This document shows positions 22,601-49,006 of a stretch of DNA of 64,000 nucleotides, piece by piece; position 1 is the stretch's first letter, and every line of letters begins with the position of its first letter. This stretch comes from Ostreococcus lucimarinus. Taxonomy: Eukaryota. The notes below the pieces were generated by a model. It was not told the DNA's origin, did not search any database, and worked only from the letters and a program-made list of their open reading frames with translations. The translations under genes and the position numbers were made by a program. The stretch is from NCBI GenBank assembly GCA_000092065.1, contig CP000582.1; one strand, written 5' to 3'.

Positions 22601-24623
22601 AGGTACTTCGCTGGGAGATCCGATAGAGGTCGGCGCCGCGCTTGAGGTTCTCGCGCCGCCGACGCGCGCGGACCGGGCGCCGTCCAGGCCCCCCGCGCTC
22701 ACGCTTGAGGGCGTGAAGCCACGCGCTGGCCACTGCGAACCAGGGGCTGGCGCGGTTGGGTTGCTGTTTGCGATGGCAAACTTGACGGAGCGAGCCGTCG
22801 CGTCCCTCGTCCACCTGCGCCAGCTCAACCCTCACGTCGAGGCCGCGACGCGCCGAAACGCACCGTCGCCGCATGCGCGCGCGCCGGTGCTCGCGCGACA
22901 AGGCATGCCGCGACCGGATGACGGCGCGTCTGAGGCTGGAGCAGCGGACGCTGCTCGAGCGCGCGTGCGGCGATCCGGCGTGAGCGGCTTCGCGTTCCAG
23001 GGCACAAACGCGCACGCAATCATGGCCCGGGGACCCGGACAGGCGACTGCGCCCGGGTACACGGGAAGCACGCACACGGCGGCGCGTGCGTGGGAGCGTC
23101 AGCGCCACTGGTGCGCGCCAGAACGGCACTGCCTCATCGAGTCCGTGCGCGCTCTTCATCCTCGCGAGGGAGACTCGAGCGCGTTGGCGCGGTCGTGCGT
23201 GCGCCTGTGTCGGTCCGCGTCGCTCGCTGGCATGCTTGATCACGCCATCGGGCTCCGGACGCTACTACCAGGCACAGCGCACGTCGAGATATGTCGAGCC
23301 ATGGCGGGCGCGCTGGCAGACCAGCCGCTCGCCGACATCTCGCTGTCGCACGTATCTTTTGCAGCGCCCCTCGAGCTTCGAGCGCCGACGACCGACGTGC
23401 TGTGCGACGTCACGCCGCAAGGCGTGGCCCGCGTGGGCGTGCGCGTGTCGTCGTCCTCTGCCGCCGCGCCGTTCCTCGCGGGCGCGCTCAGCCGCAGAAG
23501 CGCCTCAAGAATTACTGCGTCTCCGGCGCACCTCTCGCGAGGACCGGCGATGCCCGCGCTGGACGTGCAGCCTTGTGTTCACGGCGCGAGCTGGCTGCGC
23601 TCGTCGCAGCGACGAGGCCCGGGCGCGGAGCACCGCGTGTACGGCGACATACGCGCGCGTCAGATGTCCACGCTGTCGGCTGCGGCGTATCACTCGCCGC
23701 CCGCAGTGCTCGATGCCGCGCTGCACGCGCTCAGCGCGTGCGCGCCGCCGCCGGGTAGCGATGCGACAGAAGAGAGCCCGCACGTCCCGGCCACGATCGG
23801 CGGCGTCCGCACGCGAGGCGGGCACTCGGACATGTACCGCGCCCGGTTCGCGCTCGCGACGGCTCCGCCTGAGCGCGGGGAGCGGAACGCGTCCACGCGC
23901 AGATCTCGTCACCACCTGTGGGACTGGTCGAGTCTTTCGGCGGCGCATCGAGGGTGCGTGGTGCACGCGCTGGAGTCTCGACGACTCGGTGGCCTCACGA
24001 CGAATTCATTTTATCATAGCTTTACGTCTACGCAGGCATATAAGTTGGCTCATATTCCACGGCCAGACATCCTATCGCAGTCTTTCACTTCAATGAAGAC
24101 TATAAATGCTGTCGACAAAGCTAGCAGCACATTTACAGAACGCAGTAGTGATGCGATGGAAATTGTTAACGCCGTGCAACGCGAGATTTTGGAAATTTTA
24201 TCAACATTAACGACCAGTCCTGTAAGTTTAGATGATACACTTGCGAGCCACGGATTGGACTCACTGGGCATTGCATATTTTTTTATTCAAGTTGGCAAAC
24301 GGTTCAATGTTGAAGTGACTGTTGACAGTCTTGGCACGAACACCACAGTCAGTAGTATAGTGCATCAGATATCACAGATGCTTAGTGCAAGGGTGATTTT
24401 CCTACACACCAAGGACCTGGTGCGCGAGCGAAAAGCCGACAGCTCCTCAAGAAGAGGAAGGAGCACTGCGATCACATCGATGGTGTCTGCATACCGTCGA
24501 CACTTGCAGTCAACTGAATTCGAGCCCAAAGCCTGTTTTGCAAGAGGCGTACTTGCTTGCGCAATATTTACTATATTTATCATTGCGTACGGATATCACG
24601 CACACAGATTCGACATGTTTTAG
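10647..24623 (+). CDS. Type I modular polyketide synthase, AT-less (trans-AT-like); domain order KS-DH-[KR-ACP-KS-DH]x2-KS-DH-ACP with a C-terminal hydrophobic tail; 4658 aa, single intronless ORF
   Basis: KS motifs: EAxxMDPQQRLLLE-like CMDPQQRLLLL and RLMDPQQRVLLE; active-site DTACSSSLVALH / DTACSSSLVAAH; HGTGTPLGDPIE / HGTGTSLGDPIE; FQGTNAH. DH motifs: LLDHRVADMHLMPATGHLE and LDHAVGLRTLLPGTAHVE plus DAALHAL. KR motifs: VFVTGGLGALG (NADPH site) and SPGQCNYSAANAALD. ACP motifs: EEGLDSLAAVEL and terminal ASHGLDSLGIAYF. No GHSxG acyltransferase motif and no ER anywhere. The true start Met may be internal (for example MSNLDTRAMSNPYF). Confidence 0.85.
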   Translation: MTYDIVLQRFTPTSQGPTTPYPCAIKANSKWKLVRLKRLALERFRCPMLTRHKPESVQNGTPRNESRMSNLDTRAMSNPYFQVGRWDCTDELEGCQFSAPHTSVSVPNFEEIQTLHYTCVYEVAITCTQRHDMHNDEFAHVLSSVIELANRVDLTRLRQHHSIDNFATHVLTFRFILDLLRQTYQEYIKGSIENNSFEHVEFTFNNCMDGTHGMATCFKPNKKHSHLCYILDISQAERSCNGRTDDTKCVHDKITMNDRVLSAAKIPDNAVNKQFSASILNDVYGFDSSLFHISQSETLCMDPQQRLLLLAAADLYLSNTRVCQHDDSFCVHVGVSWNDFEEIRRKYSADFFSTYDSTGTSISVASGRIAYYFDFKGCAVTIDTACSSSLVALHQSMYAAGSLRESSALVCGINLILTTTMTHRFQLAGMMSSEHRCMTFDARADGYVRSEACNIVLLHFNGFTKTHRNVLRHDVHMSCVVNQDGTSTGLTAPNGTAQRNLMNELLSDVYNPSKHVGAKIHAHGTGTPLGDPIEVFAINSALSFSSLCRLYVSEKSMRGHTEPASGLCSTILAFVSGAQCKLHGQPHLQQLNNHILTSVDESIFQRSLHSSFPLTSMASVTTVSSFAFQGTNAMASLTYIDKCSIRVIRNTSGLRSLVKLETESPVRLPYTFSCLSIVNGKMIQLTSMIHDKTLKRLLDHRVADMHLMPATGHLELERELTKCALVRNEPYLLTKIAFMLPLKLDESNQLITEMNTHGRLRVGCGSGISNYWCSTARLQIPVGRAWCTDRTFYLTSKLVSRRFKGATATIAGTTPILDSQNVVNPCIQDASLQCSAYVLNTSAFASDTTYMDCVSLLKLPTTIQDVIVVNQTGKILVRSTHVDMLQKTQHVTESNNSVTSNSSSNNKTQTWIHRLLCKVSTVRMKAGLRTRTCLELARLLYHARQQRVLISNMQNLREVGSLHAPELMPIMREMGRKSMQDINSASASLCAVALLQACGARARVSGAHVRANDIVHEDASAAPAVCGSCVRATVQSSAQERSEPLVLSVASAPHTAPARALRSIAAGASIAGALCVERLLPAFGRRTPAASRDGAATTTASPAPKVSSVFVTGGLGALGQTSAAWYAHRGVRHAYLTGRRGRGESLLLRWSSRGGTDVSALHVLRVDACATDEASYGGARAHARVRAHGVLHAGGVLRDSLTARQSASAHRYVWSSKVVSAHALLRQCVGVERGARHIALFSSVAALLGSPGQCNYSAANAALDARAAHEWCRGYAVQSVQWGAWDGAGMALTNASVLRNARTTGIGVLDPQAGLGAVHVALQGASVTGRWRAIQGVLAVVPFQWSVLARAQRSRALIAEYRAESARSSAPVAVHPGAEEDAARDVSDESVRQIVASAVTRALGRDVSVDASLMEEGLDSLAAVELGGALQKETGVNMPATLAFDYPTITAISGYLKGAMLARSRARQSSGAASSAARTRAASGAVAHSRDSMPGIASNAREILGLAPVVMAIRRSVRRLDADDREPKPARHGGSALFSSFVRCVMAERASEDRFDTPSLGRQPSATARVVSLTKARDFTTQALDSMPKCNEIELSVVSAVSSKASGAHDAVRVNNMRHACGEVCDPQSSKSHEFVARRLVQFGYFIERSLFDGEQFSVTAHEARLMDPQQRVLLENALAATSATPHSAPKPATAVSVGAWTSQYADMCRVYEPTPGPYSGVASALSVLCGRVSYTFGMRGPSVCVDTACSSSLVAAHVASSHLRDGSCEDALVAGVSVNVGIGTFLVATAASMLSFDGRCKTLDASADGYAKGECCVVLRVSVDGASAGAPKAPDLPNAESPSLALLEQTGVNQDGRSSSLTAPNGPSQQALVADALLRSGLHGDALGRLEMHGTGTSLGDPIEVGAALEVLAPPTRADRAPSRGPALTLEGVKPRAGHCEPGAGAVGLLFAMANLTERAVASLVHLRQLNPHVEAATRRNAPSPHARAPVLARQGMPRPDDGASEAGAADAARARVRRSGVSGFAFQGTNAHAIMARGPGQATAPGYTGSTHTAARAWERQRHWCAPERHCLIESVRALHPREGDSSALARSCVRLCRSASLAGMLDHAVGLRTLLPGTAHVEICRAMAGALADQPLADISLSHVSFAAPLELRAPTTDVLCDVTPQGVARVGVRVSSSSAAAPFLAGALSRRSASRITASPAHLSRGPAMPALDVQPCVHGASWLRSSQRRGPGAEHRVYGDIRARQMSTLSAAAYHSPPAVLDAALHALSACAPPPGSDATEESPHVPATIGGVRTRGGHSDIYRARFALATAPPERGERNASTRRSRHHLWDWSSLSAAHRGCVVHALESRRLGGAAVVRSRAQQRSRAPPPRRAAAPRVLYGVGQQRACGAADGQGARRRSTLNSQCFVDDASHRRELMETHASPSIAQGSTRSSTRASLCAVALLQACGARARVSGAHVRANDIVHEDASAAPAVCGSCVRATVQSSAQERSEPLVLSVASAPHTAPARALRSIAAGASIAGALCVERLLPTFGRRTPAASRDGAATTTASPAPKVSSVFVTGGLGALGQTSAAWYAHRGVRHAYLTGRRGRGESLLLRWSSRGGTDVSALHVLRVDACATDEASYGGARAHARVRAHGVLHAGGVLRDSLTARQSASAHRYVWSSKVVSAHALLRQCVGVERGARHIALFSSVAALLGSPGQCNYSAANAALDARAAHEWCRGYAVQSVQWGAWDGAGMALTNASVLRNARTTGIGVLDPQAGLGAVHVALQGASVTGRWRAIQGVLAVVPFQWSVLARAQRSRALIAEYRAESARSSAPVAVHPGAEEDAARDVSDESVRQIVASAVTRALGRDVSVDASLMEEGLDSLAAVELGGALQKETGVNMPATLAFDYPTITAISGYLKGAMLARSRARQSSGAASSAARTRAASGAVAHSRRTTITQLPRLRLSYVPHEVSRRTTLGISGQYSHELRHFSSAGPSTSNFEGVLFVRIHNSTKPLPVHPYFIGNFLRCDELEFGLFGAPHSEWTTLDARQILLIESVHTIQLNNSSDVSLRTLETTAVLVGAQAVDSTDEHSVEIQYNAYSGVASALSVLCGRVSYTFGMRGPSVCVDTACSSSLVAAHVASSHLRDGSCEDALVAGVSVNVGIGTFLVATAASMLSFDGRCKTLDASADGYAKGECCVVLRVSVDGASAGAPKAPDLPNAESPSLALLEQTGVNQDGRSSSLTAPNGPSQQALVADALLRSGLHGDALGRLEMHGTGTSLGDPIEVGAALEVLAPPTRADRAPSRGPALTLEGVKPRAGHCEPGAGAVGLLFAMANLTERAVASLVHLRQLNPHVEAATRRNAPSPHARAPVLARQGMPRPDDGASEAGAADAARARVRRSGVSGFAFQGTNAHAIMARGPGQATAPGYTGSTHTAARAWERQRHWCAPERHCLIESVRALHPREGDSSALARSCVRLCRSASLAGMLDHAIGLRTLLPGTAHVEICRAMAGALADQPLADISLSHVSFAAPLELRAPTTDVLCDVTPQGVARVGVRVSSSSAAAPFLAGALSRRSASRITASPAHLSRGPAMPALDVQPCVHGAIRRSVRRLDADDREPKPARHGGSALFSSFVRCVMAERASEDRFDTPSLGRQPSATARVVSLTKARDFTTQALDSMPKCNEIELSVVSAVSSKASGAHDAVRVNNMRHACGEVCDPQSSKSHEFVARHLVQFGYFIERSLFDGEQFSVTAHEARLMDPQQRVLLENALAATSATPHSAPKPATAVSVGAWTSQYADMCRVYEPTPGPYSGVASALSVLCGRVSYTFGMRGPSVCVDTACSSSLVAAHVASSHLRDGSCEDALVAGVSVNVGIGTFLVATAASMLSFDGRCKTLDASADGYAKGECCVVLRVSVDGASAGAPKAPDLPNAESPSLALLEQTGVNQDGRSSSLTAPNGPSQQALVADALLRSGLHGDALGRLEMHGTGTSLGDPIEVGAALEVLAPPTRADRAPSRPPALTLEGVKPRAGHCEPGAGAVGLLFAMANLTERAVASLVHLRQLNPHVEAATRRNAPSPHARAPVLARQGMPRPDDGASEAGAADAARARVRRSGVSGFAFQGTNAHAIMARGPGQATAPGYTGSTHTAARAWERQRHWCAPERHCLIESVRALHPREGDSSALARSCVRLCRSASLAGMLDHAIGLRTLLPGTAHVEICRAMAGALADQPLADISLSHVSFAAPLELRAPTTDVLCDVTPQGVARVGVRVSSSSAAAPFLAGALSRRSASRITASPAHLSRGPAMPALDVQPCVHGASWLRSSQRRGPGAEHRVYGDIRARQMSTLSAAAYHSPPAVLDAALHALSACAPPPGSDATEESPHVPATIGGVRTRGGHSDMYRARFALATAPPERGERNASTRRSRHHLWDWSSLSAAHRGCVVHALESRRLGGLTTNSFYHSFTSTQAYKLAHIPRPDILSQSFTSMKTINAVDKASSTFTERSSDAMEIVNAVQREILEILSTLTTSPVSLDDTLASHGLDSLGIAYFFIQVGKRFNVEVTVDSLGTNTTVSSIVHQISQMLSARVIFLHTKDLVRERKADSSSRRGRSTAITSMVSAYRRHLQSTEFEPKACFARGVLACAIFTIFIIAYGYHAHRFDMF
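13605..23993. repeat. 10.4-kb block of near-identical tandem segmental duplications inside the PKS ORF. Segments: a 13605-15115 = 17976-19486 (KR-ACP). b2 15182-15800 = 21449-22067 (linker plus KS N-terminus). c 15801-17320 = 19929-21448 = 22068-23587 (KS core plus DH N-half). d 17321-17975, partial copy 23588-23993. Order is a-b-c-d-a-b'-c-b2-c-d'.
   Basis: The offsets 4371, 4128 and 6267 nt were verified at several junctions. Copies differ by only a few SNPs (for example caatcttcc/cagtcttcc, gagcggctg/gagcgtctg, RRLVQ/RHLVQ, SRGP/SRPP). The block is about 70% GC against about 47% in the flanks. Confidence 0.85.
19487..19928 (+). repeat. Divergent low-GC paralogue (b') of the linker / KS-N-terminus segment, replacing the 685-nt GC-rich b segment in module copy 2
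   Basis: It encodes FGLFGAPHSEWTTLDARQILLIESVHTIQ...TAVLVGAQAVDSTDEHSVEIQYNAYSGVAS. This aligns with FSVTAHEARLMDPQQRVLLENALAATSA...TAVSVGAWTSQYADMCRVYEPTPGPYSGVAS of the other copies. Nucleotide composition resembles the host flanks. Confidence 0.7.
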
Positions 24624-26194: not shown

Positions 26195-29100
26195 ATGTGC
26201 CGACAGCCAGTTGCCGACCAGCTTACAGCGATCAATATCGCCCCGTATCCTGACAGTGCGTTTGATCTCAATGTGCGACAACAGGCATTCGGTACTTGTC
26301 TACAACACGCCTTGCTTCACTGGCAGGAATTATGTTGCTCAAACGACTTCAACAGTTTCGCAGCAAAGGCTTCTATCAGGTGCCTCAGTCTACCTCAGCT
26401 CATTTTACACAAAAAGGAAGTAATGGGAGCTCTTTTGAATGGCATTAGATCAGGAAAATGCTATTCTCTTGAAGCGCTCTTTCATTGTCTCGTTGCCATA
26501 GCGAAAGATCTTGGTGCTAGCTTTGTCACATATTTTCCACTTTCAGTTGAGGCAATCACTTGCTGTCTGGAAGGAACTATGGAATTGGACGCGAACCACG
26601 TGGAGTCGGCGTTTCGGTGCCTCGCTACGCTCTGCACATTACTATGGCGGTCAGGCAAAGTTACAATGCTGCATATTTTAGAGTGTACGCGGCATATTAG
26701 AAACCATCCAAAGCAACATGTGCGCAAACTAGCAGCCCAAGCGGTTGCTCCGGCTGTACGAAGTTCGACTAATGAAATCATCTTAGCTAGTGTCAGAAAT
26801 CTCATCATGGAACACTCTATACTGTGTGAGTCAAGTCAGCAGGAACACAGGATAGAAGCAACGACATTCATGTTACACTACATTGCTGTTGGTCATGCGA
26901 GCGCGCTTCACTCAAAGTCGGACAGCGTGCTGAGAGCAGTTTTCGATCCAGACTTCGTACCTGAGGTACGGGGAACTGTCCGTCTAGTCATAGTTCAGAA
27001 CTTACTTGTTTCACTTGATGCATCTCTACCCAAGAGCGCCTTCAAAGAACTATGGAATTCATTTTTACATGTTATCAGTTCTTGTGCTGCTCAAGTGGGT
27101 AACAAGAACATATCAGAAGTCATGTACTTATCTGAGATAGCTATATCCATATGTTCTACAAGGTTCGAATTGTGTACAGATAGCTACAATAAGCTTTCTG
27201 ATTTCGTACACGCTTACTTCTTGTTTTGTACAACCAGTGCAAAACCAGTTGAGCAATCAAGTGTCACTACTTTTGTGCGGCTGCTGGCGGCACTTTCTTC
27301 ACGTAACGAGTTCAAAGCAATGCCAGTGTTAACATCTTTTCCTTGGTGTGATCTGATACGGACTATTGACAACTCTTCGATTACGCTGATACTAAGGGTG
27401 CTGATACAAAACATTGAACTGGGATGCGTCACAGCTCATTACATGAGTGAAGCCTTACTGATAGATTCGTCGCACTTGATTTTTCTTAGAGGATTCGAAA
27501 ACTCTTTAATGTTGGGCAAGATTATTCAAAAGGTGGCAGAATTTTCGAAGGATTTACACTCGAAGTTGATGCGAATCGACGATGCACTCTTGAAGTGGCA
27601 CTTCGAGTGTAAGCTGACATCGCTTGATTTTAGTGAAATATGGTCAACTCTCCAAATTTTACCGTATTTTGCCGACACTCGACTGGTGCAGAGCGTCATT
27701 ACTACCATGGTCTCATATGTCAAGCGTTCAAAAGAGGCAAGTGTGGATCAAAATGCCCTTTCCAGTGGTGCATCGGCTCTTCTCATGTCTTCACTTGAAG
27801 CTGATATACTTTGTCGAGAACTTGATACATCTTCAAATTGCAAGTTCTCGTTTGAACTTATTCGTTTCACTCTCTCATGTCGTATTTCTTCGCCGGCTGT
27901 GTGGTCTTCGTTAGCACGTCTAACTTCTTTGATTATACGGCGAGCCGATGAAATACCAGCCGAACTTATGCCAAGTGATCTGACAGAATGCATACGATCC
28001 CAAAATCGTCTTTTAAGGGTTTCTGTTCTTGAGTATTTAGCGATTATTGCAAACAATCATATGGGCATGTCACCCAAGTCGACTGAGTGTGTTACAGCCT
28101 TTTTGTATATGAACAGGTTGTCTCGTGATAGTGGAAGTATACTCGAATATTCCAGGAAGAGTATCAATTTGATCAGATCCTTGACTCGGAAACTCAGCGA
28201 CTTTGATGCCTCTGATCACGTTGCGGTGTTGAATATGGCTCTGGGAGCGTTGTATCTTCGTTTCAATCCACTATGGGATCCACTTGTAGAACTGATTGGT
28301 GTCTTGAGTGGATCCGATTCTACAGCGCTTCAGTTATTACAGGCAGAAATCCTTCGAACCAAGCAGGAAGTAATTGCTGACCACGATGTCCAAGAAACGA
28401 TTATTTTGTTCCCCACCGACAGCGATCAGACACGTGATGAAGTTTGTGAAGCTCTCAATCCTCAAGAGCGGAGTGTAGAACAGTCTCAACGTTTACAGCT
28501 GTTGATTACGTCTCTGCAGTACTGCACACTTATGGACCAAACTTTTGTACTTGATCTCTTTTTGGATGTTTATTCAGTCTGCCGTAGAAATGAATATAGA
28601 TATGTTGCTACACGGTATTCAGGCATAATTTTAGCTCTCTTAAAGCTTATGCAGAGTAAAGATGAGGTTCGTTCTCTCCTTCTTCGGACAAAATTAGATG
28701 CGCATCAGTTATACGAAGGCGTTTTCACAGCTTTGAAAGCTTTAGTGGGTGATGACAACGCGAACTTGGCATCAGAAGCGCTGAAGTGTATGGGCCTTTT
28801 GAAGTTAGATTATCTCCCTAATATTAGAGTTTCGCAACTATGCTTGCTGACGGATGTTCAGTCAGTGAAGCGCGCGTTAACTTCAATACAATTCGAAGAA
28901 GGTTCAGAGGATTCTGAAGTTTCACATGAGTTTCCTAAGATCCAAGAACGGCACCGGGAGGATGTCATCAGTATCATAGTAAGCATCCTGTCAAAATATA
29001 TTCTCTCAGGGAAAACTTCATTTAGCTCACTAAAGTCGATCATTTTGAGATGGTTCAGCTGTTTGAGATGTGCTGAAATGGAACCATTTATACATGGGCT

Positions 29101-32100
29101 GTTTGTACCCTTGATGAGACCTCATGAAATCAGACTACGTCATGGTACTACTGTATTCTCTACTCAAGCGATAAACTCAGCGATATCAGAAGCTTCACAT
29201 GGTACCTTGATCGCATTGATGTCACAGCTGCGAGAAGTGCATAAAGCGGTACCAATGCATTTGAGAAACTCCACGGATCTTATTCTTTCGGTGATGTTCC
29301 AAATTTTCATGAGAGCATGCAAGCGTCAAGATATCCAAAATGATGAGTTGCTTCGACTTAAAATCTTGCGGTCAAATTCGCTTCGGATGATTGCGCGCAT
29401 TATACCGATTGTGAAGTTCGAAGGTATAGAGCGCCATTGGCTCGATGCGAGTGAATGTTTGATAAATACTGTTAAGGGCTTGGAAAACGAATGCTCCGGC
29501 TCACAAGAACCCGCAGTGCTGTGCCTGCTTTCTTCAATCACACAACGTGTAGATCTCATCAAACTCCTCGAAACTCCCACCGGTCACAAACTTCTCGAAT
29601 ATGTTTTCGCTGTATTGAGCAGCCCAAAGACATCTGAACCATGTAGAAGAACAATTTTGAGCATGATCACCATGCTCCTCAACTCCGTAAATTCTGAGTT
29701 GGGTAATGATTGCACTGTCGCAAATCTGTCCGAAAAAATCGCTGCAGGCGTTCGTATGTCACTTATAAACGAGCTAAAACGCGGAAGAATACCGACATCA
29801 AAGCAATTTGGCGAAGATATGCTCTCTGAAATTCAGATTCTTGAACAATTAAGCAAATTTGAACGCTGCAGTCCGTGGAATATTTGTATGTTCAAAGATG
29901 TGTTAGAGATGGCGTGTACGAAACGTCTGAACAGTGGAAAACGTACTGAGTTGCTCGTTATGTTAAACTCTATACTTTCAGCACTATCTTTGGATGAGCA
30001 ACTCAGACGTGAGTCAGTTGAGAGGTTAGCATTTTTATATGCGACATTGAGAGCACCGTGCTCTAGGAGAGCATTGTTAGATCTCTTCAAAGCACTCGAT
30101 TATTCGCAAGACGGATATAGAGTTCGCATACTTCATGATTTGAATGCTTACTTGGATGGGCGCATTGGCGAAGTGGATCACGGTAGAAGAATTCGGGCAT
30201 ACGCCAAGTTGCAATCACGCTGGGGTGGAGAAGATGAAACATCAATGCAACTGTGGATTTATAACTCGCTGCATGATATATGTTCAAATGACAGCATTCT
30301 TCGTAATTCTGCAAAACTATTGATATATCGGTGTTTGGAAGTTGGTTCAACAGCGTCCTACAACTTCCAGCATGGGCCAAGTTCACGGCTAGTGGTGAAC
30401 ACTGTGTTGCCCTGGGTCGCAGAGCTACTCGGTAGACGGGACCCTCTTATTCGCAATTGTGGTATAGAACTATTAAGATATGCGGTGGTCCGAGGGCATA
30501 TTCTTGATTTTTGCTGTTTGTGTGATCAGAATGAAGAAGTCGATGTATTTCTGAACCTGTGCCACATCCAATCTCACAGGAGAGCCCGGGCAATACGACA
30601 ACTGCATGCGCCTGAAGTTTTAAGCTCTGTGGAGCCCAGACTATATTGGACGTATGTGATTCCTCTTTTCATGGTGTTTTTGGGCGATCCAAGTGCAGAT
30701 GTCGCAGCTACGGCCGTAGATGCTTTGGGTCACACGGTAAAAATACTCGAGTCTGCGGAATATGTCAAGGTTATTTGCCGCCTGTTGCACCTTGCGCACA
30801 GGGCCTCAGAATTACAGAAATTTCATCTGCGCGGTGCGACTTGCATGCTAGAAAATTTGAGAACACACTATGAACCTTACGGCGATTTTGATGATCGGTT
30901 AGTTCGCCGTGGTGAAGCGGCAGATTTGGGGGCTTTATATTCCACTGCACTTCCACTGGCACAGGCATGTATTACTTTGAGACGTGACGCTCAAAGTAGC
31001 GAACAAGGCTCAAGTCAATATCTACAGACAAGTGCAATTTCATGTGTTTCGAGTATGTTGGCACTTTTTGATCATGAAAAATCCGAAGCAGGGACACTTT
31101 GTATGCTCAAGTTCATCATCGAAAACATGAGCAGTCGGTCAGAGAAGTTGCGCGATAATGCAATGACAGCTCTCAAGTTCATTTCAATCAAATTGGGCGA
31201 AAGGCACTTGCCGTTGATCATTCGTGTTCTGCGAAATGGACGGACAACAGGCTTCCATCTCCATGTTCTCGGCAAAGCGATTCATGTGTTAGTGAGTAAC
31301 TGTGTGAACATGTCTCCAGAAATCGCCACAGTCGTTTTTGTGGAAATTGTTCCTACCCTGCAAGCAAATCTCTTCGGAAGCGCGCGAGATCGTATGGATT
31401 CAAAATCTACCAAACCCGTTGTTGAGGCTAAACCAAGTTATTCCTTGAAAACCATAAGCTTAATTGCCGCACTTTTGAAGGACGGAGATTCTTTGATCAA
31501 GTTTGTTCGTACATTTGTTAGGATGCTACCAGAGTCACCAGACAGCAGAAGTCAAAAGAATTTCGAGCTAATTTTACACGCTTTACATGAAGGATTGTTG
31601 CGAAATGCAAGTCTAGGGGTTCAAAATCTTACTTATCTTGCTGGTTCGCTCGTTGAAGAATACATCACTTCCTCCACCGTGGATACCGATTGTGATACGG
31701 ACACAAGTTTGCTTGCGTCAGAGTATTGTGTGAAAATTCATCAATTCGCAATCAGTTTACTATATGATGCACTCAAGTGTGCGGAAAAATTGCGTGATGA
31801 AAGACTTCCATGTGAAAGCGACCTCGAGGCTTTGAAAACGACGATCGCTTTGATGATGCGATGCTTGCTGAGCACGTCATATGAAGTACAGGTCGGGGCA
31901 ACGCGCATCTTAGCAAAACTTTTACGCTCCGGCTTGCTCGCGAAAGAAATTTCCGCAGAAAACTTAACTAAACGGATTATTCGTACACTTAAGTCGTGCA
32001 AGTCTGTGAAAGACCATCTTGCTCAGAACTGCTTGAAGATCCTTGCACACATTATGAAAACTCATCACCAGATAACACTCACATTGCCACAAGTGTCGTT

Positions 32101-33493
32101 TGTGCTGTCATTTTCATTTAAAAATTTGTCAGATGATGCGCAGGACCTGAAAAACTCGTTTCTGTTACTCAATTCTCTCATATCGCGGAGAGTGGTCCAG
32201 AACGACATGTATGCTCTTATGCATGAACTACTGTTGACGATTGCGAAGGGTCAATCGATGCAAGTTCGAAGTATGTGTTCGCACGTATTCATTCGTTTCG
32301 TGTTATCGTATCCCATTGGTGAGAGGAAAGTAGAAGATATGCTTCGAACGCTGATTTCTTCTTTAGAATATCCTCAAGCAGACGGTCGCATGTCTGTGCT
32401 GTCAACGATACATGCACTTCTTTTGAAGTTGCCCGAAGTCGCTCTCAAATCTAACGGGCCTCTCTTCTTCTTTCCACTAGTGCTCCGCGTTGCATCAGAT
32501 ACGCATTCACAGTGCAGTGAGTTGGCAAATAGAGCACTCGATTGCTTATTTTCACGAGTCGATGAGACGCAAATGATGAAATTTCTCTCTTGTACGATCG
32601 TATGGTCAAAAAGGCAAGATATGCTTCAACGTGCGGCATACCAAGTTTTACTGTTGGGATTTTCTAGACATGCCAGTATTACATTTGAAGTGTACTCGCA
32701 AGTTGAAGGTCACATGATAAAAAGAATACGTGCGGCTCTTCAACGTAAAGACGGAGTGGACTGGTCTATTACGTATTGTCAGCTGATTTGCTTTGAACGG
32801 GCAGTCAGCCATCGAAGTCAATGTCTGGATAGTGAGCATTCAGACGCATTCAGCAGTGAAGCTGATTTCGCAATGGTACACATCCTTCCACACGCCGTTT
32901 CTTACGATCATCTTTGGATTCAGGCATCTGCGTTGCGCGTTCTCAGATCTTACCTTCAGGCCGAAACTCGAATGGAAAAGTCTTTCACAATATTGTCTGA
33001 CGTCAATATTGAACTCATCGTTGATGCATTGATTACGGTCATTGAACGACAATCACGAACTAAGAAAGTCGAGCATGCAAACATGGGCGATGTTTTGTTA
33101 TGTTTGACGGCAATCATGACTTCAGTACACGCAAAGGCGATCAGCGAAAAATATAGTTCACAAATATTCCATAGACTTCATAAGTCCGCTTTTTCGTCCC
33201 CAGAGCTCAAGCGTACAATACTCCAATCGATGGCTGCTTTAGTCTCCGCAAACAAATCGCCAATTGATTCGAGTAACATGGTATTATATCATGCATTGCT
33301 TTTATCTTATCATTGCATGGATCGAACAATAGAAGGTTGCGACACCAAGGAAGACTTACAGAGCTATGCAATCGCAGGAGACATATTTTCCAGTCTGCAG
33401 CTGATACTGCCTCCCGAGATTTTTCTTGTGATGTTCGAGCGTGTGAAAACTGACTTAACTAAGAAAGGAAGAAGCGGTACTGTGATTAGCTAG
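26195..33493 (+). CDS. Large (2432 aa) alpha-helical HEAT/ARM-repeat protein, intronless ORF. A nucleolar pre-rRNA-processing scaffold (UTP20/URB1-type) is a guess only. The 5' exon(s) may lie in 25745..26194.
   Basis: Uninterrupted 7.3-kb ORF with leucine-rich helical repeat character throughout. No catalytic motifs. Confidence 0.5.
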   Translation: MCRQPVADQLTAINIAPYPDSAFDLNVRQQAFGTCLQHALLHWQELCCSNDFNSFAAKASIRCLSLPQLILHKKEVMGALLNGIRSGKCYSLEALFHCLVAIAKDLGASFVTYFPLSVEAITCCLEGTMELDANHVESAFRCLATLCTLLWRSGKVTMLHILECTRHIRNHPKQHVRKLAAQAVAPAVRSSTNEIILASVRNLIMEHSILCESSQQEHRIEATTFMLHYIAVGHASALHSKSDSVLRAVFDPDFVPEVRGTVRLVIVQNLLVSLDASLPKSAFKELWNSFLHVISSCAAQVGNKNISEVMYLSEIAISICSTRFELCTDSYNKLSDFVHAYFLFCTTSAKPVEQSSVTTFVRLLAALSSRNEFKAMPVLTSFPWCDLIRTIDNSSITLILRVLIQNIELGCVTAHYMSEALLIDSSHLIFLRGFENSLMLGKIIQKVAEFSKDLHSKLMRIDDALLKWHFECKLTSLDFSEIWSTLQILPYFADTRLVQSVITTMVSYVKRSKEASVDQNALSSGASALLMSSLEADILCRELDTSSNCKFSFELIRFTLSCRISSPAVWSSLARLTSLIIRRADEIPAELMPSDLTECIRSQNRLLRVSVLEYLAIIANNHMGMSPKSTECVTAFLYMNRLSRDSGSILEYSRKSINLIRSLTRKLSDFDASDHVAVLNMALGALYLRFNPLWDPLVELIGVLSGSDSTALQLLQAEILRTKQEVIADHDVQETIILFPTDSDQTRDEVCEALNPQERSVEQSQRLQLLITSLQYCTLMDQTFVLDLFLDVYSVCRRNEYRYVATRYSGIILALLKLMQSKDEVRSLLLRTKLDAHQLYEGVFTALKALVGDDNANLASEALKCMGLLKLDYLPNIRVSQLCLLTDVQSVKRALTSIQFEEGSEDSEVSHEFPKIQERHREDVISIIVSILSKYILSGKTSFSSLKSIILRWFSCLRCAEMEPFIHGLFVPLMRPHEIRLRHGTTVFSTQAINSAISEASHGTLIALMSQLREVHKAVPMHLRNSTDLILSVMFQIFMRACKRQDIQNDELLRLKILRSNSLRMIARIIPIVKFEGIERHWLDASECLINTVKGLENECSGSQEPAVLCLLSSITQRVDLIKLLETPTGHKLLEYVFAVLSSPKTSEPCRRTILSMITMLLNSVNSELGNDCTVANLSEKIAAGVRMSLINELKRGRIPTSKQFGEDMLSEIQILEQLSKFERCSPWNICMFKDVLEMACTKRLNSGKRTELLVMLNSILSALSLDEQLRRESVERLAFLYATLRAPCSRRALLDLFKALDYSQDGYRVRILHDLNAYLDGRIGEVDHGRRIRAYAKLQSRWGGEDETSMQLWIYNSLHDICSNDSILRNSAKLLIYRCLEVGSTASYNFQHGPSSRLVVNTVLPWVAELLGRRDPLIRNCGIELLRYAVVRGHILDFCCLCDQNEEVDVFLNLCHIQSHRRARAIRQLHAPEVLSSVEPRLYWTYVIPLFMVFLGDPSADVAATAVDALGHTVKILESAEYVKVICRLLHLAHRASELQKFHLRGATCMLENLRTHYEPYGDFDDRLVRRGEAADLGALYSTALPLAQACITLRRDAQSSEQGSSQYLQTSAISCVSSMLALFDHEKSEAGTLCMLKFIIENMSSRSEKLRDNAMTALKFISIKLGERHLPLIIRVLRNGRTTGFHLHVLGKAIHVLVSNCVNMSPEIATVVFVEIVPTLQANLFGSARDRMDSKSTKPVVEAKPSYSLKTISLIAALLKDGDSLIKFVRTFVRMLPESPDSRSQKNFELILHALHEGLLRNASLGVQNLTYLAGSLVEEYITSSTVDTDCDTDTSLLASEYCVKIHQFAISLLYDALKCAEKLRDERLPCESDLEALKTTIALMMRCLLSTSYEVQVGATRILAKLLRSGLLAKEISAENLTKRIIRTLKSCKSVKDHLAQNCLKILAHIMKTHHQITLTLPQVSFVLSFSFKNLSDDAQDLKNSFLLLNSLISRRVVQNDMYALMHELLLTIAKGQSMQVRSMCSHVFIRFVLSYPIGERKVEDMLRTLISSLEYPQADGRMSVLSTIHALLLKLPEVALKSNGPLFFFPLVLRVASDTHSQCSELANRALDCLFSRVDETQMMKFLSCTIVWSKRQDMLQRAAYQVLLLGFSRHASITFEVYSQVEGHMIKRIRAALQRKDGVDWSITYCQLICFERAVSHRSQCLDSEHSDAFSSEADFAMVHILPHAVSYDHLWIQASALRVLRSYLQAETRMEKSFTILSDVNIELIVDALITVIERQSRTKKVEHANMGDVLLCLTAIMTSVHAKAISEKYSSQIFHRLHKSAFSSPELKRTILQSMAALVSANKSPIDSSNMVLYHALLLSYHCMDRTIEGCDTKEDLQSYAIAGDIFSSLQLILPPEIFLVMFERVKTDLTKKGRSGTVIS

Positions 33494-45728: not shown

Positions 45729-45831
45729 TGTTTAGACATTTTGTTTTATATACCTATATATAGGTACCTAGTATTGTAATATTACACGGTACTACGCCAG
45801 ATTACGTAGTTTTTTTATCGCATATTGCTGA

Positions 45832-45867
45832 GAAACCTTGGGGCGTGGTTCCACGCCCCAAGGTTTC
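45832..45867. repeat. Perfect 17-nt-arm hairpin, gaaaccttggggcgtgg tt ccacgccccaaggtttc, ~100 nt downstream of the DDX49 stop; also a 16-nt palindrome tacctatatataggta at about 45758-45773
   Basis: Reverse complement verified by eye. A possible 3'-end or regulatory hairpin. The cccaaggtttc core recurs at 46036-46046. Confidence 0.55.
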
Positions 45868-45910
45868 CAGAAAGTAATACATACTGATATCATACGTTCG
45901 CCGACATATA

Positions 45911-46134
45911 GAGAATGAACCCAATCCCGTATTATAGTGGTTCTAACGCATATGTCTACACTACATGACCTAGACCTACATATAGACTTAGCGCGTATGA
46001 ATAAGCATCGGACAAGCACGCACGGCATCCATCGCGACTTATAAACCCAAGGTTTCTCAATTTAGACTTTCGCCGTTTTGCGATGGTGTATAATAAGCGT
46101 TGACAACACTATAATACAGGATTGGGTTCATCTC
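45911..46134. mobile_element. MITE-like element (about 224 bp) with about 38-bp imperfect terminal inverted repeats, lying in the promoter of the aconitase B gene
   Basis: Left TIR gagaatgaacccaatcccgtattatagtggttctaacgc (45911-45949). Reverse complement of the right TIR (46097-46134) is gagatgaacccaatcctgtattatagtgttgtcaacgc, about 33/38 identical. The core is AT-rich and non-coding. Confidence 0.55.
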
Positions 46135-46159
46135 ATGTGTCAATATCTCTCAGCCACAG

Positions 46160-49006
46160 GTGTGGCGCAGCACTCGGTCGATCACAGTTTTTTTATTCAG
46201 CTGCACCAGTTCGCACGCGGAATTTTCCATAACTCGCGACCCGAACCCGATGAATGTACGAGCAGCGCACCGTACGCTTCAATCACTTGTGAGAGTGCGA
46301 AGTTTCGGGCTACTCGGCTGCCGGCTCGCACGGTGTACGTCAGACTTAGCGGACAGCTCAACAACTCTGTTGCCGTTGTTGCGTACACGAAGTACAGGCG
46401 TAATACCGGTTATCAACGTGCAGTCGAGCCGTAGCGCATGCGTCGGTACAAGGGGGATTCTAGATGAGTATGAACAGCATAAAAACGACAGGGCCCAACT
46501 CGGTATACCCGCAAAACCTCTCTCTGCGAAGCAAGTATCAGAACTGATTGCCTTGCTGGAAGCACCGATCAGCGAAGAAGAAGACCGCATATATGATATG
46601 CTAGTAAACTGCATTTCACCTGGTGTCGATGAAGCGGCATATGTTAAGGCAGGTTGGCTTGCAAGTGTAAGCAAAGGCAAGACTGTGAGCCCGTTAGTAT
46701 CGCGGGAAGATGCCGTCCGTATCCTTGGCACCATGCAGGGTGGATACAACATCTCGCCTCTTATTGATGCACTTGATTATGACGACTTGGGTCGCATTGC
46801 CGCTGCCGCTCTTTCTGACACCCTGTTGATATTCGATGCATTTTACGATGTTCAAGAGAAAGCAGATAAAGCAAATAAGTATGCCATGCAAGTAGTGCAG
46901 AGTTGGGCGGACGCAGAATGGTTCACAAAGAAGAGCCCACCACCATCAAAAATCACTGTAACAGTGTTCAAAGTGCCAGGTGAAACAAATACCGATGATC
47001 TTTCGCCCGCTCAAGATGCATGGAGTCGCCCCGATATTCCTCTGCACGCCCTTGCGATGCTCAAATCACCGCGTGAAGGAATTCAAAACCCGATTTCTCA
47101 AATCGACGAACTCAAAAAACTTGGATATCCACTGGCGTATGTTGGCGACGTCGTTGGGACTGGTTCGTCACGTAAGTCTGCAACGAATTCTGTCTTGTGG
47201 CACATGGGTATTGACATTCCGAACGTTCCCAATAAACGCACTGGAGGAGTATGCATCGGTGGTAAAATTGCTCCAATTTTCTTCAACACAATGGAGGACA
47301 GTGGGGCATTCCCTATCGAGATGGACGTGAAGAATATACACATGGGTGATGTCATAGATATATTCCCGTATGAGGGTTTAGTCAAGAAACATGGCACAAA
47401 TGAGGTTATCACAACTTTTTCCCTGAAGAGTCCTGTGCTATTGGATGAAATTCAGGCTGGTGGGCGCATCCCACTCATTATTGGTCGATCGTTGACTGAT
47501 AAAGCTAGAAATGCATTGGGTCTAGAGCCTTCTGAAGTATTTCAAGTGCCCCAGGTCTCTAAATCACGTTCTAAGGGGTTTACACTCGCACAGAAGATGG
47601 TGGGGAAGGCATGTGGTGTGGCTGGGATACTTCCCGGCACATACTGCGAACCTCGTGTAACGACTGTGGGGAGTCAAGATACGACTGGTCCTATGACACG
47701 TGACGAGTTGAAGGATCTGGCTTGTCTTGGTTTCACCGCCGATTTAGTCATGCAGTCTTTTTGCCATACGGCTGCATATCCCAAGCCTGTTGATGTTGAC
47801 ACTCACCACACTCTCCCCACTTTTATTCGCAACCGTGGCGGTGTATCGCTTAGACCAGGAGATGGGGTCATACACAGCTGGCTGAATCGTATGCTCTTAC
47901 CTGATACAGTAGGTACAGGTGGCGACTCGCACACTCGATTCCCGATTGGGATTTCGTTTCCAGCTGGCTCTGGTTTAGTAGCATTCGGTGCTGCCACTGG
48001 AGTTATTCCTCTCGACATGCCAGAATCAGTACTTGTTCGTTTCACTGGGCATCTACAGCCAGGTATTACTTTGCGGGATCTTGTCCACGCTATTCCACTG
48101 CAGGCAATTGAAGATGGATTACTTACAGTCGCAAAAGAAGACAAAGTCAACGCCTTTAGTGGGCGTATTTTGGAAATTGAAGGTCTTGAGCATCTGAAGT
48201 GTGAACAAGCATTTGAACTGTCAGACGCTAGTGCTGAAAGAAGTGCGGCTGGCTGTACAATTAAGCTCGACGAAGCAAGCGTAAAGGAGTATCTTACTAG
48301 TAACGTTGCTCTTCTTAAGTGGATGATAGCCAATGATTATGGTGAGGTTCGTACTCTCGAGCGCAGAATCCTCGCGATGCAACAATGGCTCGCTGCCCCA
48401 GAGCTTTTACGGGCTGATGATGATGCTGAGTACGCTGCGACGATCGAAATTGATTTGAACGCAATCACAGAACCTATATTATGTGCACCGAATGATCCAG
48501 ATGACGCACGTACACTTTCTTCTGTAGTTGGTGATAAAGTTGACGAGGTGTTCATAGGCTCTTGCATGACGAACATTGGTCATTTCAGAGCTGCGGCAAA
48601 GCTTTTGAACGACAATCTCAGTCAGCTTCCCACTCGACTTTGGGTGGCACCCCCAACAAAGATGGACGAATTGCAGCTGAAAGTTGAAGGACATTACAGC
48701 ACTTTTGCTACGGTAGGCGCGAGGACAGAGATGCCAGGGTGCTCTTTGTGTATGGGAAACCAAGCGAGAGTTGCTGAAAAGAGCACAGTAGTTTCTACAA
48801 GTACTCGGAACTTTCCCAATCGTCTTGGTAAAGGTGCAAATGTTTATCTAGCATCTGCAGAACTTTCTGCTGTTTGCGCGATTCTAGGCCGAATACCATC
48901 AAAGGAAGAATACTTGAGCCATGTTGAAGTGCTTACGAACAGTACTGACACGTACCAGTACCTCAACTTCGACAAATTGAGCTATTACACAGATGTACGC
49001 GAGTAA
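46160..49006 (+). CDS. acnB: Bacterial-type aconitate hydratase B (AcnB family), with about 90-aa N-terminal presequence (probable mitochondrial targeting; likely start [10 protein letters not shown] at about 46250)
   Basis: After the presequence, [37 protein letters not shown]...[19 protein letters not shown] is collinear with E. coli AcnB MLEEYRKHVAERAAEGIAPKPLDANQMAALVELLKNP...[19 protein letters not shown]. Fe-S ligand region [27 protein letters not shown] and SCMTNIGH are present. Intronless. Confidence 0.8.

What the first reader, a model, noticed from the sequence alone, without database searches (positions are those of the whole stretch)
46160..49006. Bacterial-type aconitase B with a eukaryotic targeting presequence
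AcnB-family aconitases are characteristically bacterial. Here a full-length, intronless AcnB homologue, collinear with E. coli AcnB from residue 1, carries an about 90-aa arginine-rich N-terminal extension. That implies organellar (mitochondrial) import, probably reflecting an old horizontal or endosymbiotic acquisition that replaced or supplements the canonical mitochondrial aconitase.
Basis: partly seen in the sequence, partly recalled or inferred. Interest (0 to 1): 0.5.

Follow-up and report, generated by a model that had tools for sequence, protein, structure and literature searches.

The report
Green-alga aconitase B with mitochondrial leader

Summary
The AcnB call is correct. The ORF scores 1455 bits against NCBIfam TIGR00117 acnB (cutoff 1287). 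It aligns without a break to the solved E. coli AcnB (1L5J residues 2-854), and all three Fe-S cysteines are kept.

The protein from the first ATG (46250) is 918 aa and identical to Ostreococcus lucimarinus CCE9901 XP_001416185.1. Its neighbours are ordinary eukaryotic genes.

The N-terminal extension is real but is 69 aa, not about 90. The ORF start at 46160 is a GTG artefact of the bacterial code. There is no in-frame Met near 46430, and the next one (46598) would truncate the enzyme.

Features of the extension:
- 14.5% Arg, 2.9% acidic residues, net charge +8, no hydrophobic core.
- Indel-free against a sister strain, with dN/dS about 0.35.

Every eukaryotic AcnB recovered carries a similar but non-homologous basic leader, and many end in R-x-F-(A/S)-S. 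Bacterial AcnBs start exactly where the leader ends. Mitochondrial import is therefore the best reading, but it is untested.

The closest bacterial relatives are gammaproteobacteria (68-73% identity). AcnB occurs in several algal lineages, so the acquisition is old and not obviously endosymbiotic.

Published work already notes mamiellophycean AcnB and mitochondrial signals on eukaryotic ACNB. Novelty: already known. Interest: low.

The parts
46250..49006 (+). Complete intronless coding sequence of the AcnB precursor: 918 codons plus a TAA stop.
   Evidence: Identical to O. lucimarinus CCE9901 XP_001416185.1 / ABO94478.1 / UniRef A4RSV0 (P0121). TIGR00117 acnB scores 1455 bits. Aligns to 1L5J with 1377 bits.
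46250..46456 (+). N-terminal extension of 69 codons, the presumed mitochondrial presequence: [69 protein letters not shown].
   Evidence: Absent from all bacterial AcnBs, which begin at the equivalent of residue 70. It has 10 Arg, 0 Lys and 2 Asp, net charge +8; the first acidic residue is at position 32, and the maximum Kyte-Doolittle 15-residue mean is 1.04. Against sister-strain contig L005 it is 93% identical in DNA with no indels and dN/dS 0.35.
46160..46249 (+). 5' leader, not coding. It forms the first 30 codons of the table-11 ORF, which starts at a GTG.
   Evidence: No ATG lies in frame between the stop at 46112 and 46250. It is 84% identical to L005, with indels of 2, 3 and 1 nt.
46466..46924 (+). 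AcnB-specific N-terminal HEAT-like domain (domain 5).
   Evidence: Pfam PF11791 Aconitase_B_N, E = 3e-59, ORF residues 103-255, full model length.
46958..47581 (+). Swivel domain (domain 4). It lies N-terminal to the catalytic domains, which is the AcnB permutation.
   Evidence: Pfam PF06434 Aconitase_2_N, E = 1.4e-96, ORF residues 267-474, model positions 1-204 of 204.
47582..48898 (+). Catalytic aconitase domains 1-3, which bind the [4Fe-4S] cluster.
   Evidence: NCBIfam PRK00402 matches ORF residues 475-913. Pfam PF00330 Aconitase matches residues 563-910.
48563..48565 (+). Codon for Cys772, which aligns with the E. coli AcnB Fe-S ligand Cys710.
   Evidence: The column is aligned; the sequence context [11 protein letters not shown] was confirmed.
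48740..48751 (+). Codons for Cys831 and Cys834 in the motif [10 protein letters not shown], which align with E. coli Cys769 and Cys772.
45729..46159 (.). Intergenic region upstream of AcnB, presumably holding the promoter. It contains a perfect 17-nt-arm palindrome (45832-45867) and a 39-nt inverted-repeat pair (45915-45953 and 46093-46131).
   Evidence: Only 55% identical to sister-strain contig L005, with many gaps.

Best explanation
The locus is the single-exon nuclear gene for aconitase B of Ostreococcus lucimarinus.

Proposed mechanism:
1. The gene is translated from the ATG at 46250 into a 918-aa precursor.
2. The first 69 or so residues form a positively charged, acid-poor leader of the mitochondrial presequence type.
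3. The precursor is imported through TOM/TIM23 and the leader is removed by the matrix processing peptidase. Candidate cleavage sites are after R-S-A (residues 61-63) or T-R-G (residues 67-69).
4. The mature enzyme of about 850 aa receives a [4Fe-4S] cluster on Cys772, Cys831 and Cys834 and interconverts citrate, cis-aconitate and isocitrate in the TCA cycle.
5. It probably retains 2-methylisocitrate dehydratase capacity.

What is shown: enzyme family, domain order, conserved ligands, the start codon, that the leader is coding and under constraint, its composition, and its absence from bacterial homologues.

What is inferred: the destination organelle, cleavage, activity in vivo, and that it is the main or only aconitase of this alga.

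The gene belongs to an old eukaryotic AcnB lineage that is shared with other prasinophytes, haptophytes and dinoflagellates and is most similar to gammaproteobacterial AcnB.
For: Family:
- TIGR00117 acnB 1455 bits (cutoff 1287) and PRK09238 1430 bits; AcnA and mitochondrial-aconitase models score only 19-39 bits.
- Pfam domain order is Aconitase_B_N, Aconitase_2_N, Aconitase.
- 1L5J aligns over residues 71-915, and the three Cys ligands are kept.

Nuclear eukaryotic context:
- The flanking genes encode HSP70, CAF1, Ndc80, a WD40 protein, a DEAD-box helicase, dNK, asparagine synthase, a GPN GTPase and SRP54. The same neighbours recur on many independent environmental contigs.
- The protein is identical to XP_001416185.1.

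The leader is translated:
- 46250 is the only in-frame ATG that yields a complete enzyme.
- The frame is conserved without indels from the ATG onward, whereas the 90 nt upstream carry indels of 2, 3 and 1 nt.
- dN/dS is 0.35 for the leader against 0.09 for the core.

The leader looks like a presequence:
- 14.5% Arg, 2.9% Asp+Glu, 23% Ser+Thr, net charge +8, no signal-peptide-like hydrophobic run.

Comparative evidence:
- All 38 eukaryote-type homologues carry extensions of 22-129 aa (one is truncated to 10 aa). These are not alignable to one another but share the same composition. Bacterial AcnBs start at offset 0.
- Leaders from haptophyte and dinoflagellate-type sequences have no signal peptide and end in R-x-F-(A/S)-S, the classical R-3 processing motif.

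Literature:
- The Chloropicon AcnB orthologue was predicted mitochondrial by one of two predictors, with E = 0 orthologues in Ostreococcus, Micromonas and Bathycoccus.
- ACNB is listed among eukaryotic enzymes with mitochondrial targeting signals.

Likely the main aconitase:
- In a published aconitase-family alignment, the only Ostreococcus and Bathycoccus rows are LeuC (118.8 bits to leuC against 49 bits to mitochondrial aconitase). Micromonas contributes a true mitochondrial-type aconitase.
Against: - There is no experimental localisation, and no dedicated predictor (TargetP, MitoFates, PredAlgo) could be run.
- The amphipathic-helix signal is not significant: maximum hydrophobic moment 0.577, reached by 8% of shuffles.
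- 69 aa is long for an algal presequence.
- The second half of the leader is Ser/Thr-rich and could equally pass for a green-algal chloroplast transit peptide.
- The second predictor used for the Chloropicon orthologue gave 'other'.
- The junction in this species has only weak R-2/R-3 candidates, not the clear R-x-F-S motif seen in other lineages.
- The sole-aconitase inference rests on another group's orthologue table, which also gave a LeuC-like row for Chlorella and so is not fully reliable.
Confidence: 0.75

Rival explanations
1. The leader is a chloroplast transit peptide or a dual-targeting peptide, so AcnB works wholly or partly in the plastid.
For: Green-algal transit peptides resemble presequences. 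Residues 30-69 are rich in Ser/Thr and poor in charge, and the 69-aa length is typical of transit peptides. The amphipathicity test is not significant. One predictor did not call the Chloropicon orthologue mitochondrial.
Against: Orthologues from algae with secondary plastids lack the signal peptide that plastid import needs, and they end in the mitochondrial R-x-F-S motif. The first 29 residues carry 6 Arg and no acidic residue. No canonical mitochondrial aconitase is evident for Ostreococcus in the published alignment, so the TCA cycle would lack an aconitase. A survey assigns mitochondrial signals to ACNB.
Confidence: 0.15
2. The extension is translated but is not a targeting signal. The protein would stay in the cytosol, with a disordered N-terminal tail that has some other role or none.
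For: Localisation is untested. The leader is under weaker constraint than the core, with dN/dS 0.35 against 0.09.
Against: The composition is strongly biased in the direction expected for import signals, and the bias recurs in independently diverged leaders across all eukaryotic AcnBs. A neutral tail would not keep this bias or stay free of indels.
Confidence: 0.06
3. The extension is an annotation or ORF artefact, and translation really starts downstream to give a bacterial-length cytosolic AcnB.
For: The first 30 codons of the ORF as given (46160-46249) are indeed an artefact of the bacterial start-codon rule.
Against: No in-frame ATG exists between 46250 and 46598, and a start at 46598 would delete 47 conserved residues of the HEAT-like domain. 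Conservation of the frame begins exactly at 46250.
Confidence: 0.02
4. The gene is bacterial contamination, or a very recent bacterial transfer specific to this strain.
For: It is 72-73% identical to enterobacterial and Vibrio AcnB, and it has no introns.
Against: It sits among eukaryotic housekeeping genes on dozens of independent contigs and in a diverged sister strain with the same gene order. Its GC content (47%) matches the surrounding region. Orthologues with leaders occur across Mamiellophyceae and other algae.
Confidence: 0.01

Closest known systems
Escherichia coli aconitase B (AcnB, PDB 1L5J)
   Same: Same domain order: HEAT-like domain 5, swivel domain 4, then catalytic domains 1-3. 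Collinear over 845 residues with about 72% identity. Identical Fe-S ligand motifs ([18 protein letters not shown]).
   Different: The algal protein has a 69-aa basic N-terminal leader, is nuclear-encoded, lacks the last 10 or so residues of the E. coli C-terminus, and has a 7-residue deletion near E. coli residue 210. The RNA-binding and iron-sensing roles of E. coli apo-AcnB are untested here.
Ostreococcus lucimarinus CCE9901 XP_001416185.1 / UniRef A4RSV0 'Aconitate hydratase B'
   Same: Identical over all 918 residues. This is the public annotation of the same gene.
   Different: Nothing in the sequence differs. The database entry gives no localisation.
AcnB orthologues of other marine algae (Bathycoccus, Mantoniella, Micromonas-type, Pyramimonas obovata, Chloropicon primus, haptophyte and dinoflagellate MMETSP transcripts)
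   Same: Cores are 71-81% identical. Each carries an N-terminal Arg/Ser/Ala-rich, acid-poor leader. They cluster apart from bacterial AcnBs in NJ trees.
   Different: Leaders are not homologous in sequence and range from 22 to 129 aa. Many end in R-x-F-(A/S)-S, which the O. lucimarinus leader lacks.
Canonical eukaryotic mitochondrial aconitase (ACO2/mAcn; TIGR01340) and AcnA/IRP1
   Same: Same superfamily, same reaction, same type of Fe-S cluster, and the same presumed compartment.
   Different: The domain order is permuted, with the swivel domain C-terminal in mAcn and AcnA, and they have no HEAT-like domain. The window protein scores only 38.5 bits on TIGR01340 (cutoff 825) and 23 bits on AcnA (cutoff 945).

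Membership tests
Aconitase B (AcnB; TIGR00117 / PRK09238) | The whole-protein score exceeds the curated equivalog cutoff. | tested here: met
   TIGR00117 scores 1455.1 bits against a cutoff of 1287.2. NF006690 scores 1429.9 bits against 782. The match is end to end, model positions 1-844.
Aconitase B (AcnB; TIGR00117 / PRK09238) | Permuted architecture: an N-terminal HEAT-like domain 5 and swivel domain 4 precede catalytic domains 1-3. | tested here: met
   Pfam finds PF11791, PF06434 and PF00330 in that order. The protein is collinear with 1L5J residues 2-854.
Aconitase B (AcnB; TIGR00117 / PRK09238) | Three cysteine ligands of the [4Fe-4S] cluster (E. coli Cys710, Cys769, Cys772). | tested here: met
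   Cys772, Cys831 and Cys834 lie in identical motifs.
Aconitase B (AcnB; TIGR00117 / PRK09238) | Aconitate hydratase and 2-methylisocitrate dehydratase activity. | not testable with these tools
   Inferred from 72% identity to the characterised E. coli enzyme.
   TIGR01341 AcnA scores 23.1 bits (cutoff 945) and TIGR01340 mitochondrial aconitase scores 38.5 bits (cutoff 825).
Mitochondrial matrix-targeting presequence | An N-terminal extension that is absent from the prokaryotic homologues. | tested here: met
   The extension is 69 aa, whereas bacterial AcnBs start at alignment offset 0. 1L5J residue 2 aligns to residue 71.
Mitochondrial matrix-targeting presequence | Rich in Arg and hydroxylated residues, nearly free of acidic residues, net positive charge, and no hydrophobic signal-peptide core. 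| tested here: met
   Arg 14.5%, Asp+Glu 2.9%, Ser+Thr 23.2%, net charge +8, first acidic residue at position 32, maximum KD15 1.04. Binomial P = 8e-4 for Arg and 5e-3 for acidic residues, against the mature part.
Mitochondrial matrix-targeting presequence | Ability to form an amphipathic helix. | tested here: inconclusive
   The maximum 18-residue hydrophobic moment is 0.577, against a shuffle mean of 0.429 (sd 0.105); 8% of shuffles reach it.
Mitochondrial matrix-targeting presequence | A processing-peptidase motif (Arg at -2 or -3, or R-x-F/Y followed by S/A) near the junction with the mature protein. | tested here: inconclusive
   This protein has only the weak candidates R61-S-A and R68-G. 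Orthologues show clear R-x-F-(A/S)-S motifs directly before the core.
Mitochondrial matrix-targeting presequence | Demonstrated import into mitochondria and cleavage. | not testable with these tools
   No experiment or organelle proteome was found in the literature searched.
Chloroplast transit peptide (rival) | A Ser/Thr-rich, uncharged N-terminus that directs plastid import. | tested here: inconclusive
   Residues 30-69 fit loosely, but residues 1-29 are strongly basic. No algal predictor was available.

The most novel reading that the evidence does not exclude
In Ostreococcus and Bathycoccus, the bacterial-type AcnB may be the only aconitase. That would mean it has fully replaced the ancestral mitochondrial aconitase, which Micromonas still keeps (there apparently fused to a monomeric isocitrate dehydrogenase). 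The TCA cycle of these iron-limited picoalgae would then run on an enzyme that in E. coli is unusually sensitive to iron and oxidative stress and that moonlights as an mRNA-binding regulator. A related point is that marine giant viruses carry AcnB genes with similar short basic leaders, which hints at virus-encoded aconitase being imported into host mitochondria.
Probability: 0.5. Interest if true: 0.35.

Novelty: already known. Interest (0 to 1): 0.15.

Why it matters
It matters little as a discovery. The gene is annotated, and both the presence of AcnB in mamiellophycean algae and the mitochondrial signals on eukaryotic ACNB are published. It is a clean example of a bacterial-type central-metabolism enzyme that was retargeted to an organelle by gaining a leader. 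If AcnB is indeed the sole aconitase of Ostreococcus, that would bear on how these abundant picoalgae run respiration and sense iron in iron-poor seas.

Tried and rejected
1. I searched the large protein database with a 78-aa fragment of Micromonas mitochondrial-type aconitase, to see whether Ostreococcus has an orthologue. It returned only fragments of 80-137 aa without useful names, so it was uninformative.
2. I tried to name distant AcnB representatives through cluster look-up. No organism names came back, so they served only as outgroups.
3. The supplementary data of the 2025 central-carbon-metabolism paper are not held. The Chloropicon supplements contain no K01681 row. Neither could settle presence or absence of canonical aconitase.
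4. The hydrophobic-moment test for an amphipathic helix was not significant and is not used as support.
5. The NJ phylogeny does not resolve the deep topology:
   - Eukaryote monophyly had 61% bootstrap without viral sequences and 27.5% with them.
   - Monophyly of the bacterial ingroup had 23% and 80% respectively.
   - I therefore claim only that the eukaryotic sequences cluster apart from the gammaproteobacterial ones and are closest to them.
6. I considered and rejected three ideas: a downstream start (no ATG), bacterial contamination (eukaryotic context), and a strain-specific recent transfer (wide algal distribution).
7. PMC4653902 looked from its title as if it might discuss this gene as an annotation anomaly. 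It does not.
Full report
**What is at the coordinates**

The + strand holds an uninterrupted frame that ends at 49006. Under the bacterial code used by the ORF lister it begins at a GTG at 46160 and runs for 948 codons.

Three lines of evidence identify the product as aconitase B.
- Pfam finds Aconitase_B_N (E = 3e-59), Aconitase_2_N (E = 1.4e-96) and Aconitase (E = 9e-43), in that order.
- NCBIfam's equivalog model TIGR00117 acnB scores 1455.1 bits against a cutoff of 1287.2. The match covers model positions 1-844 and ORF residues 100-945. Models for AcnA and for mitochondrial aconitase reach only 19-39 bits.
- The only solved AcnB, E. coli 1L5J, aligns from its residue 2 to residue 854 with residues 71-915 of the ATG-initiated protein, at 1377 bits and with two small gaps.

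The three Fe-S ligand cysteines (E. coli 710, 769 and 772) are conserved as Cys772, Cys831 and Cys834, in identical motifs.

**Start codon and size of the extension**

This is a eukaryotic gene (see the next section), so the GTG at 46160 is irrelevant.
- The in-frame stop upstream is at 46112.
- The only in-frame ATG before the AcnB core is 46250.
- The ATGs at 46438, 46464 and 46470 are out of frame.
- The next in-frame ATG, at 46598, lies 47 residues inside the conserved HEAT-like domain.

The precursor is therefore 918 aa and the extension is 69 aa (46250-46456), not about 90. The proposed alternative start near 46430 does not exist.

A diverged sister-strain contig (L005) gives independent support.
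- The intergenic DNA is only 55% identical, with many gaps.
- The 90 nt before the ATG are 84% identical and carry indels of 2, 3 and 1 nt.
- From the ATG onward there are no indels at all: the leader is 93.2% identical and the core 96.7%.
- Nei-Gojobori dN/dS is 0.35 for the leader (7 synonymous and 7 non-synonymous changes, so small numbers) and 0.09 for the core.

The leader is coding and constrained, though less tightly than the enzyme. This is the usual behaviour of targeting peptides.

**Organism and context**

The 918-aa product is identical to Ostreococcus lucimarinus CCE9901 XP_001416185.1 / ABO94478.1 / UniRef A4RSV0. Those entries are annotated "aconitate hydratase" and "Aconitate hydratase B", and the gene lies on an 895,087-bp record that I take to be chromosome 2.

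A one-residue variant (A5S) occurs on at least 24 marine metagenome contigs with the same neighbours: HSP70, CAF1, Ndc80, a WD40 protein, a DEAD-box helicase, AcnB, deoxynucleoside kinase, asparagine synthase, a GPN-type GTPase and SRP54. The sister strain keeps the same gene order. Bacterial contamination and a strain-specific recent transfer are excluded.

**Nature of the leader**

The composition is 10 Arg, 0 Lys, 2 Asp and 0 Glu (net charge +8), with 23% Ser+Thr.
- The first acidic residue is at position 32.
- No hydrophobic stretch would suggest a signal peptide or membrane anchor (maximum 15-residue Kyte-Doolittle mean 1.04).
- Relative to the mature part, the Arg excess (P about 8e-4) and the acidic depletion (P about 5e-3) are significant.
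- The amphipathic-helix measure is not significant: 8% of shuffles reach the observed value.

The strongest argument is comparative. Among the 120 best database hits, every bacterial AcnB (851-869 aa) starts at the position equivalent to residue 70. The 38 eukaryote-type sequences carry extensions of 22-129 aa (one is truncated to 10 aa). These extensions cannot be aligned with one another but share the Arg/Ser/Ala-rich, acid-free composition.

The leaders on haptophyte- and dinoflagellate-type sequences, for example those of Polarella and Scyphosphaera, lack a signal peptide, which plastid import in those algae would require. Many end in R-x-F-(A/S)-S immediately before the core. From general knowledge, this is the classical R-3 motif of the mitochondrial processing peptidase.

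In O. lucimarinus the junction offers only weaker candidates (R61-S-A and R68-G).

Published predictions agree in part.
- The Chloropicon primus AcnB, which has E = 0 orthologues in O. tauri, O. lucimarinus, Micromonas and Bathycoccus, was called mitochondrial by one predictor and "other" by a second.
- A 2025 survey names ACNB among enzymes of non-alphaproteobacterial origin that carry mitochondrial targeting signals.

I put mitochondrial import at about 0.75. A plastid or dual destination is the main rival, because green-algal transit peptides are similar and the second half of this leader is Ser/Thr-rich.

**Origin**

The nearest bacterial sequences are gammaproteobacterial.
- Named database hits include Vibrio, Salmonella, Rahnella, Pectobacterium, Gayadomonas and Methylomarinum, at 71-73% identity.
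- 78 of the 80 best loci from a scan of one genome per prokaryotic species are gammaproteobacteria at 68-73% identity. Examples are Rheinheimera, Alkalimonas, Methylomicrobium, Pseudoalteromonas and Pseudomonas. No cyanobacterium or alphaproteobacterium appears.

In neighbour-joining trees rooted with distant AcnB representatives, the eukaryotic sequences cluster together and apart from the bacteria. Support is weak and depends on sampling: eukaryote monophyly is 61% without viral sequences and 27.5% with them, and bacterial monophyly is 23% and 80% respectively.

Together with the wide algal distribution, this favours an old acquisition, or a few old acquisitions, of a proteobacterial-type gene. 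It does not favour a plastid or mitochondrial endosymbiotic origin. I do not regard the donor as established.

**Replaced or supplementing**

I could not search the genome directly. A published alignment of "ACO3 orthologues" drawn from pico-PLAZA contains exactly one row for each of O. lucimarinus, O. tauri, RCC809, O. mediterraneus and Bathycoccus.

That row scores 118.8 bits on leuC against 49 bits on mitochondrial aconitase, so it is isopropylmalate isomerase. The Micromonas rows score 132.9 bits on mitochondrial aconitase.

This suggests that Ostreococcus and Bathycoccus have no AcnA or mAcn-type gene, and that AcnB is their only aconitase. The evidence is second-hand, however, and the same table gives a LeuC-like row for Chlorella, so it is not fully reliable.

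**Comparison with what is known, and verdict**

The protein meets every sequence-testable criterion for AcnB. It differs from the bacterial enzyme essentially by its leader.

The gene is in public databases under the correct name. Mamiellophycean AcnB is mentioned explicitly in the Chloropicon genome paper (PMC6731263), and eukaryotic ACNB with mitochondrial signals appears in PMC11976288.

The finding is real and the reading essentially right, but it is already known. What remains untested is the actual compartment, the cleavage site and whether AcnB is the sole aconitase. Interest is low (0.15).

Noticed in passing
window 10647-24623 (+): A single uninterrupted 4658-codon ORF encodes a modular type I polyketide synthase with 4 KS, 2 KR, 3 ACP and 3 DH matches and near-identical repeated modules. 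Within this one ORF the GC content jumps from about 45-50% to 66-71% between roughly 14.0 and 24.0 kb. The rest of the window is 42-54% GC.
   Followed up: partly
whole window, 1-64000: Apart from the PKS repeats, the window is 42-54% GC. AcnB has a GC3 of only 41%. From memory, the O. lucimarinus genome averages about 60% GC, so this looks like the low-GC outlier part of chromosome 2. This was not verified against the genome.
   Followed up: no
window 45832-45867: A perfect palindrome with 17-nt arms (GAAACCTTGGGGCGTGG TT CCACGCCCCAAGGTTTC) lies about 105 nt after the stop codon of the DEAD-box helicase gene. The RNA fold is -36.1 kcal/mol with z = -7.4. It is unique in the window. It may be a 3'-end hairpin.
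   Followed up: partly
window 45915-45953 and 46093-46131: A 39-nt inverted-repeat pair, 85% complementary and 139 nt apart, lies just upstream of the AcnB start. It is the only copy in the window. It could be the termini of a MITE-like element or a promoter palindrome. This intergenic stretch aligns poorly with the sister strain.
   Followed up: partly
off-window: supplementary alignment of PMC8331168 (rows MP14G01310, MRCC299_08G00100, OL01G00690 and others): The Micromonas mitochondrial-type aconitase rows carry a long N-terminal part that begins KIWWTLTDEAPALATHAFLP. This looks like a monomeric isocitrate dehydrogenase, so it may be an IDH-aconitase fusion. The Ostreococcus and Bathycoccus rows labelled as ACO3 orthologues are LeuC, not aconitase.
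   Followed up: partly
off-window: loci L087, L095-L121 (IMG/VR giant-virus MAG contigs): More than 20 giant-virus MAG contigs (23-38% GC) encode full-length AcnB-type aconitase that is 55-66% identical to the algal core. They form one clade with 100% NJ bootstrap. Several begin with short basic leaders ending in R-x-F/Y-S-S/T, for example MLHRLRTNRNILNRTFSTLK. These look like mitochondrial presequences.
   Followed up: partly
off-window: protein P0143 (NCBI MBI20060.1): A 917-aa AcnB annotated as coming from a 'Euryarchaeota archaeon' MAG falls in the same 90% cluster as an Ostreococcus-like sequence (P0005). It carries a eukaryote-type basic leader of about 66 aa. The 54.5-kb contig is probably a mis-binned picoeukaryote fragment.
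   Followed up: partly
window 26195-33493 (+): An uninterrupted 2432-codon ORF has a UTP20 domain and encodes a nucleolar pre-rRNA processing protein. It is an ordinary eukaryotic gene, noted only for completeness.
   Followed up: partly
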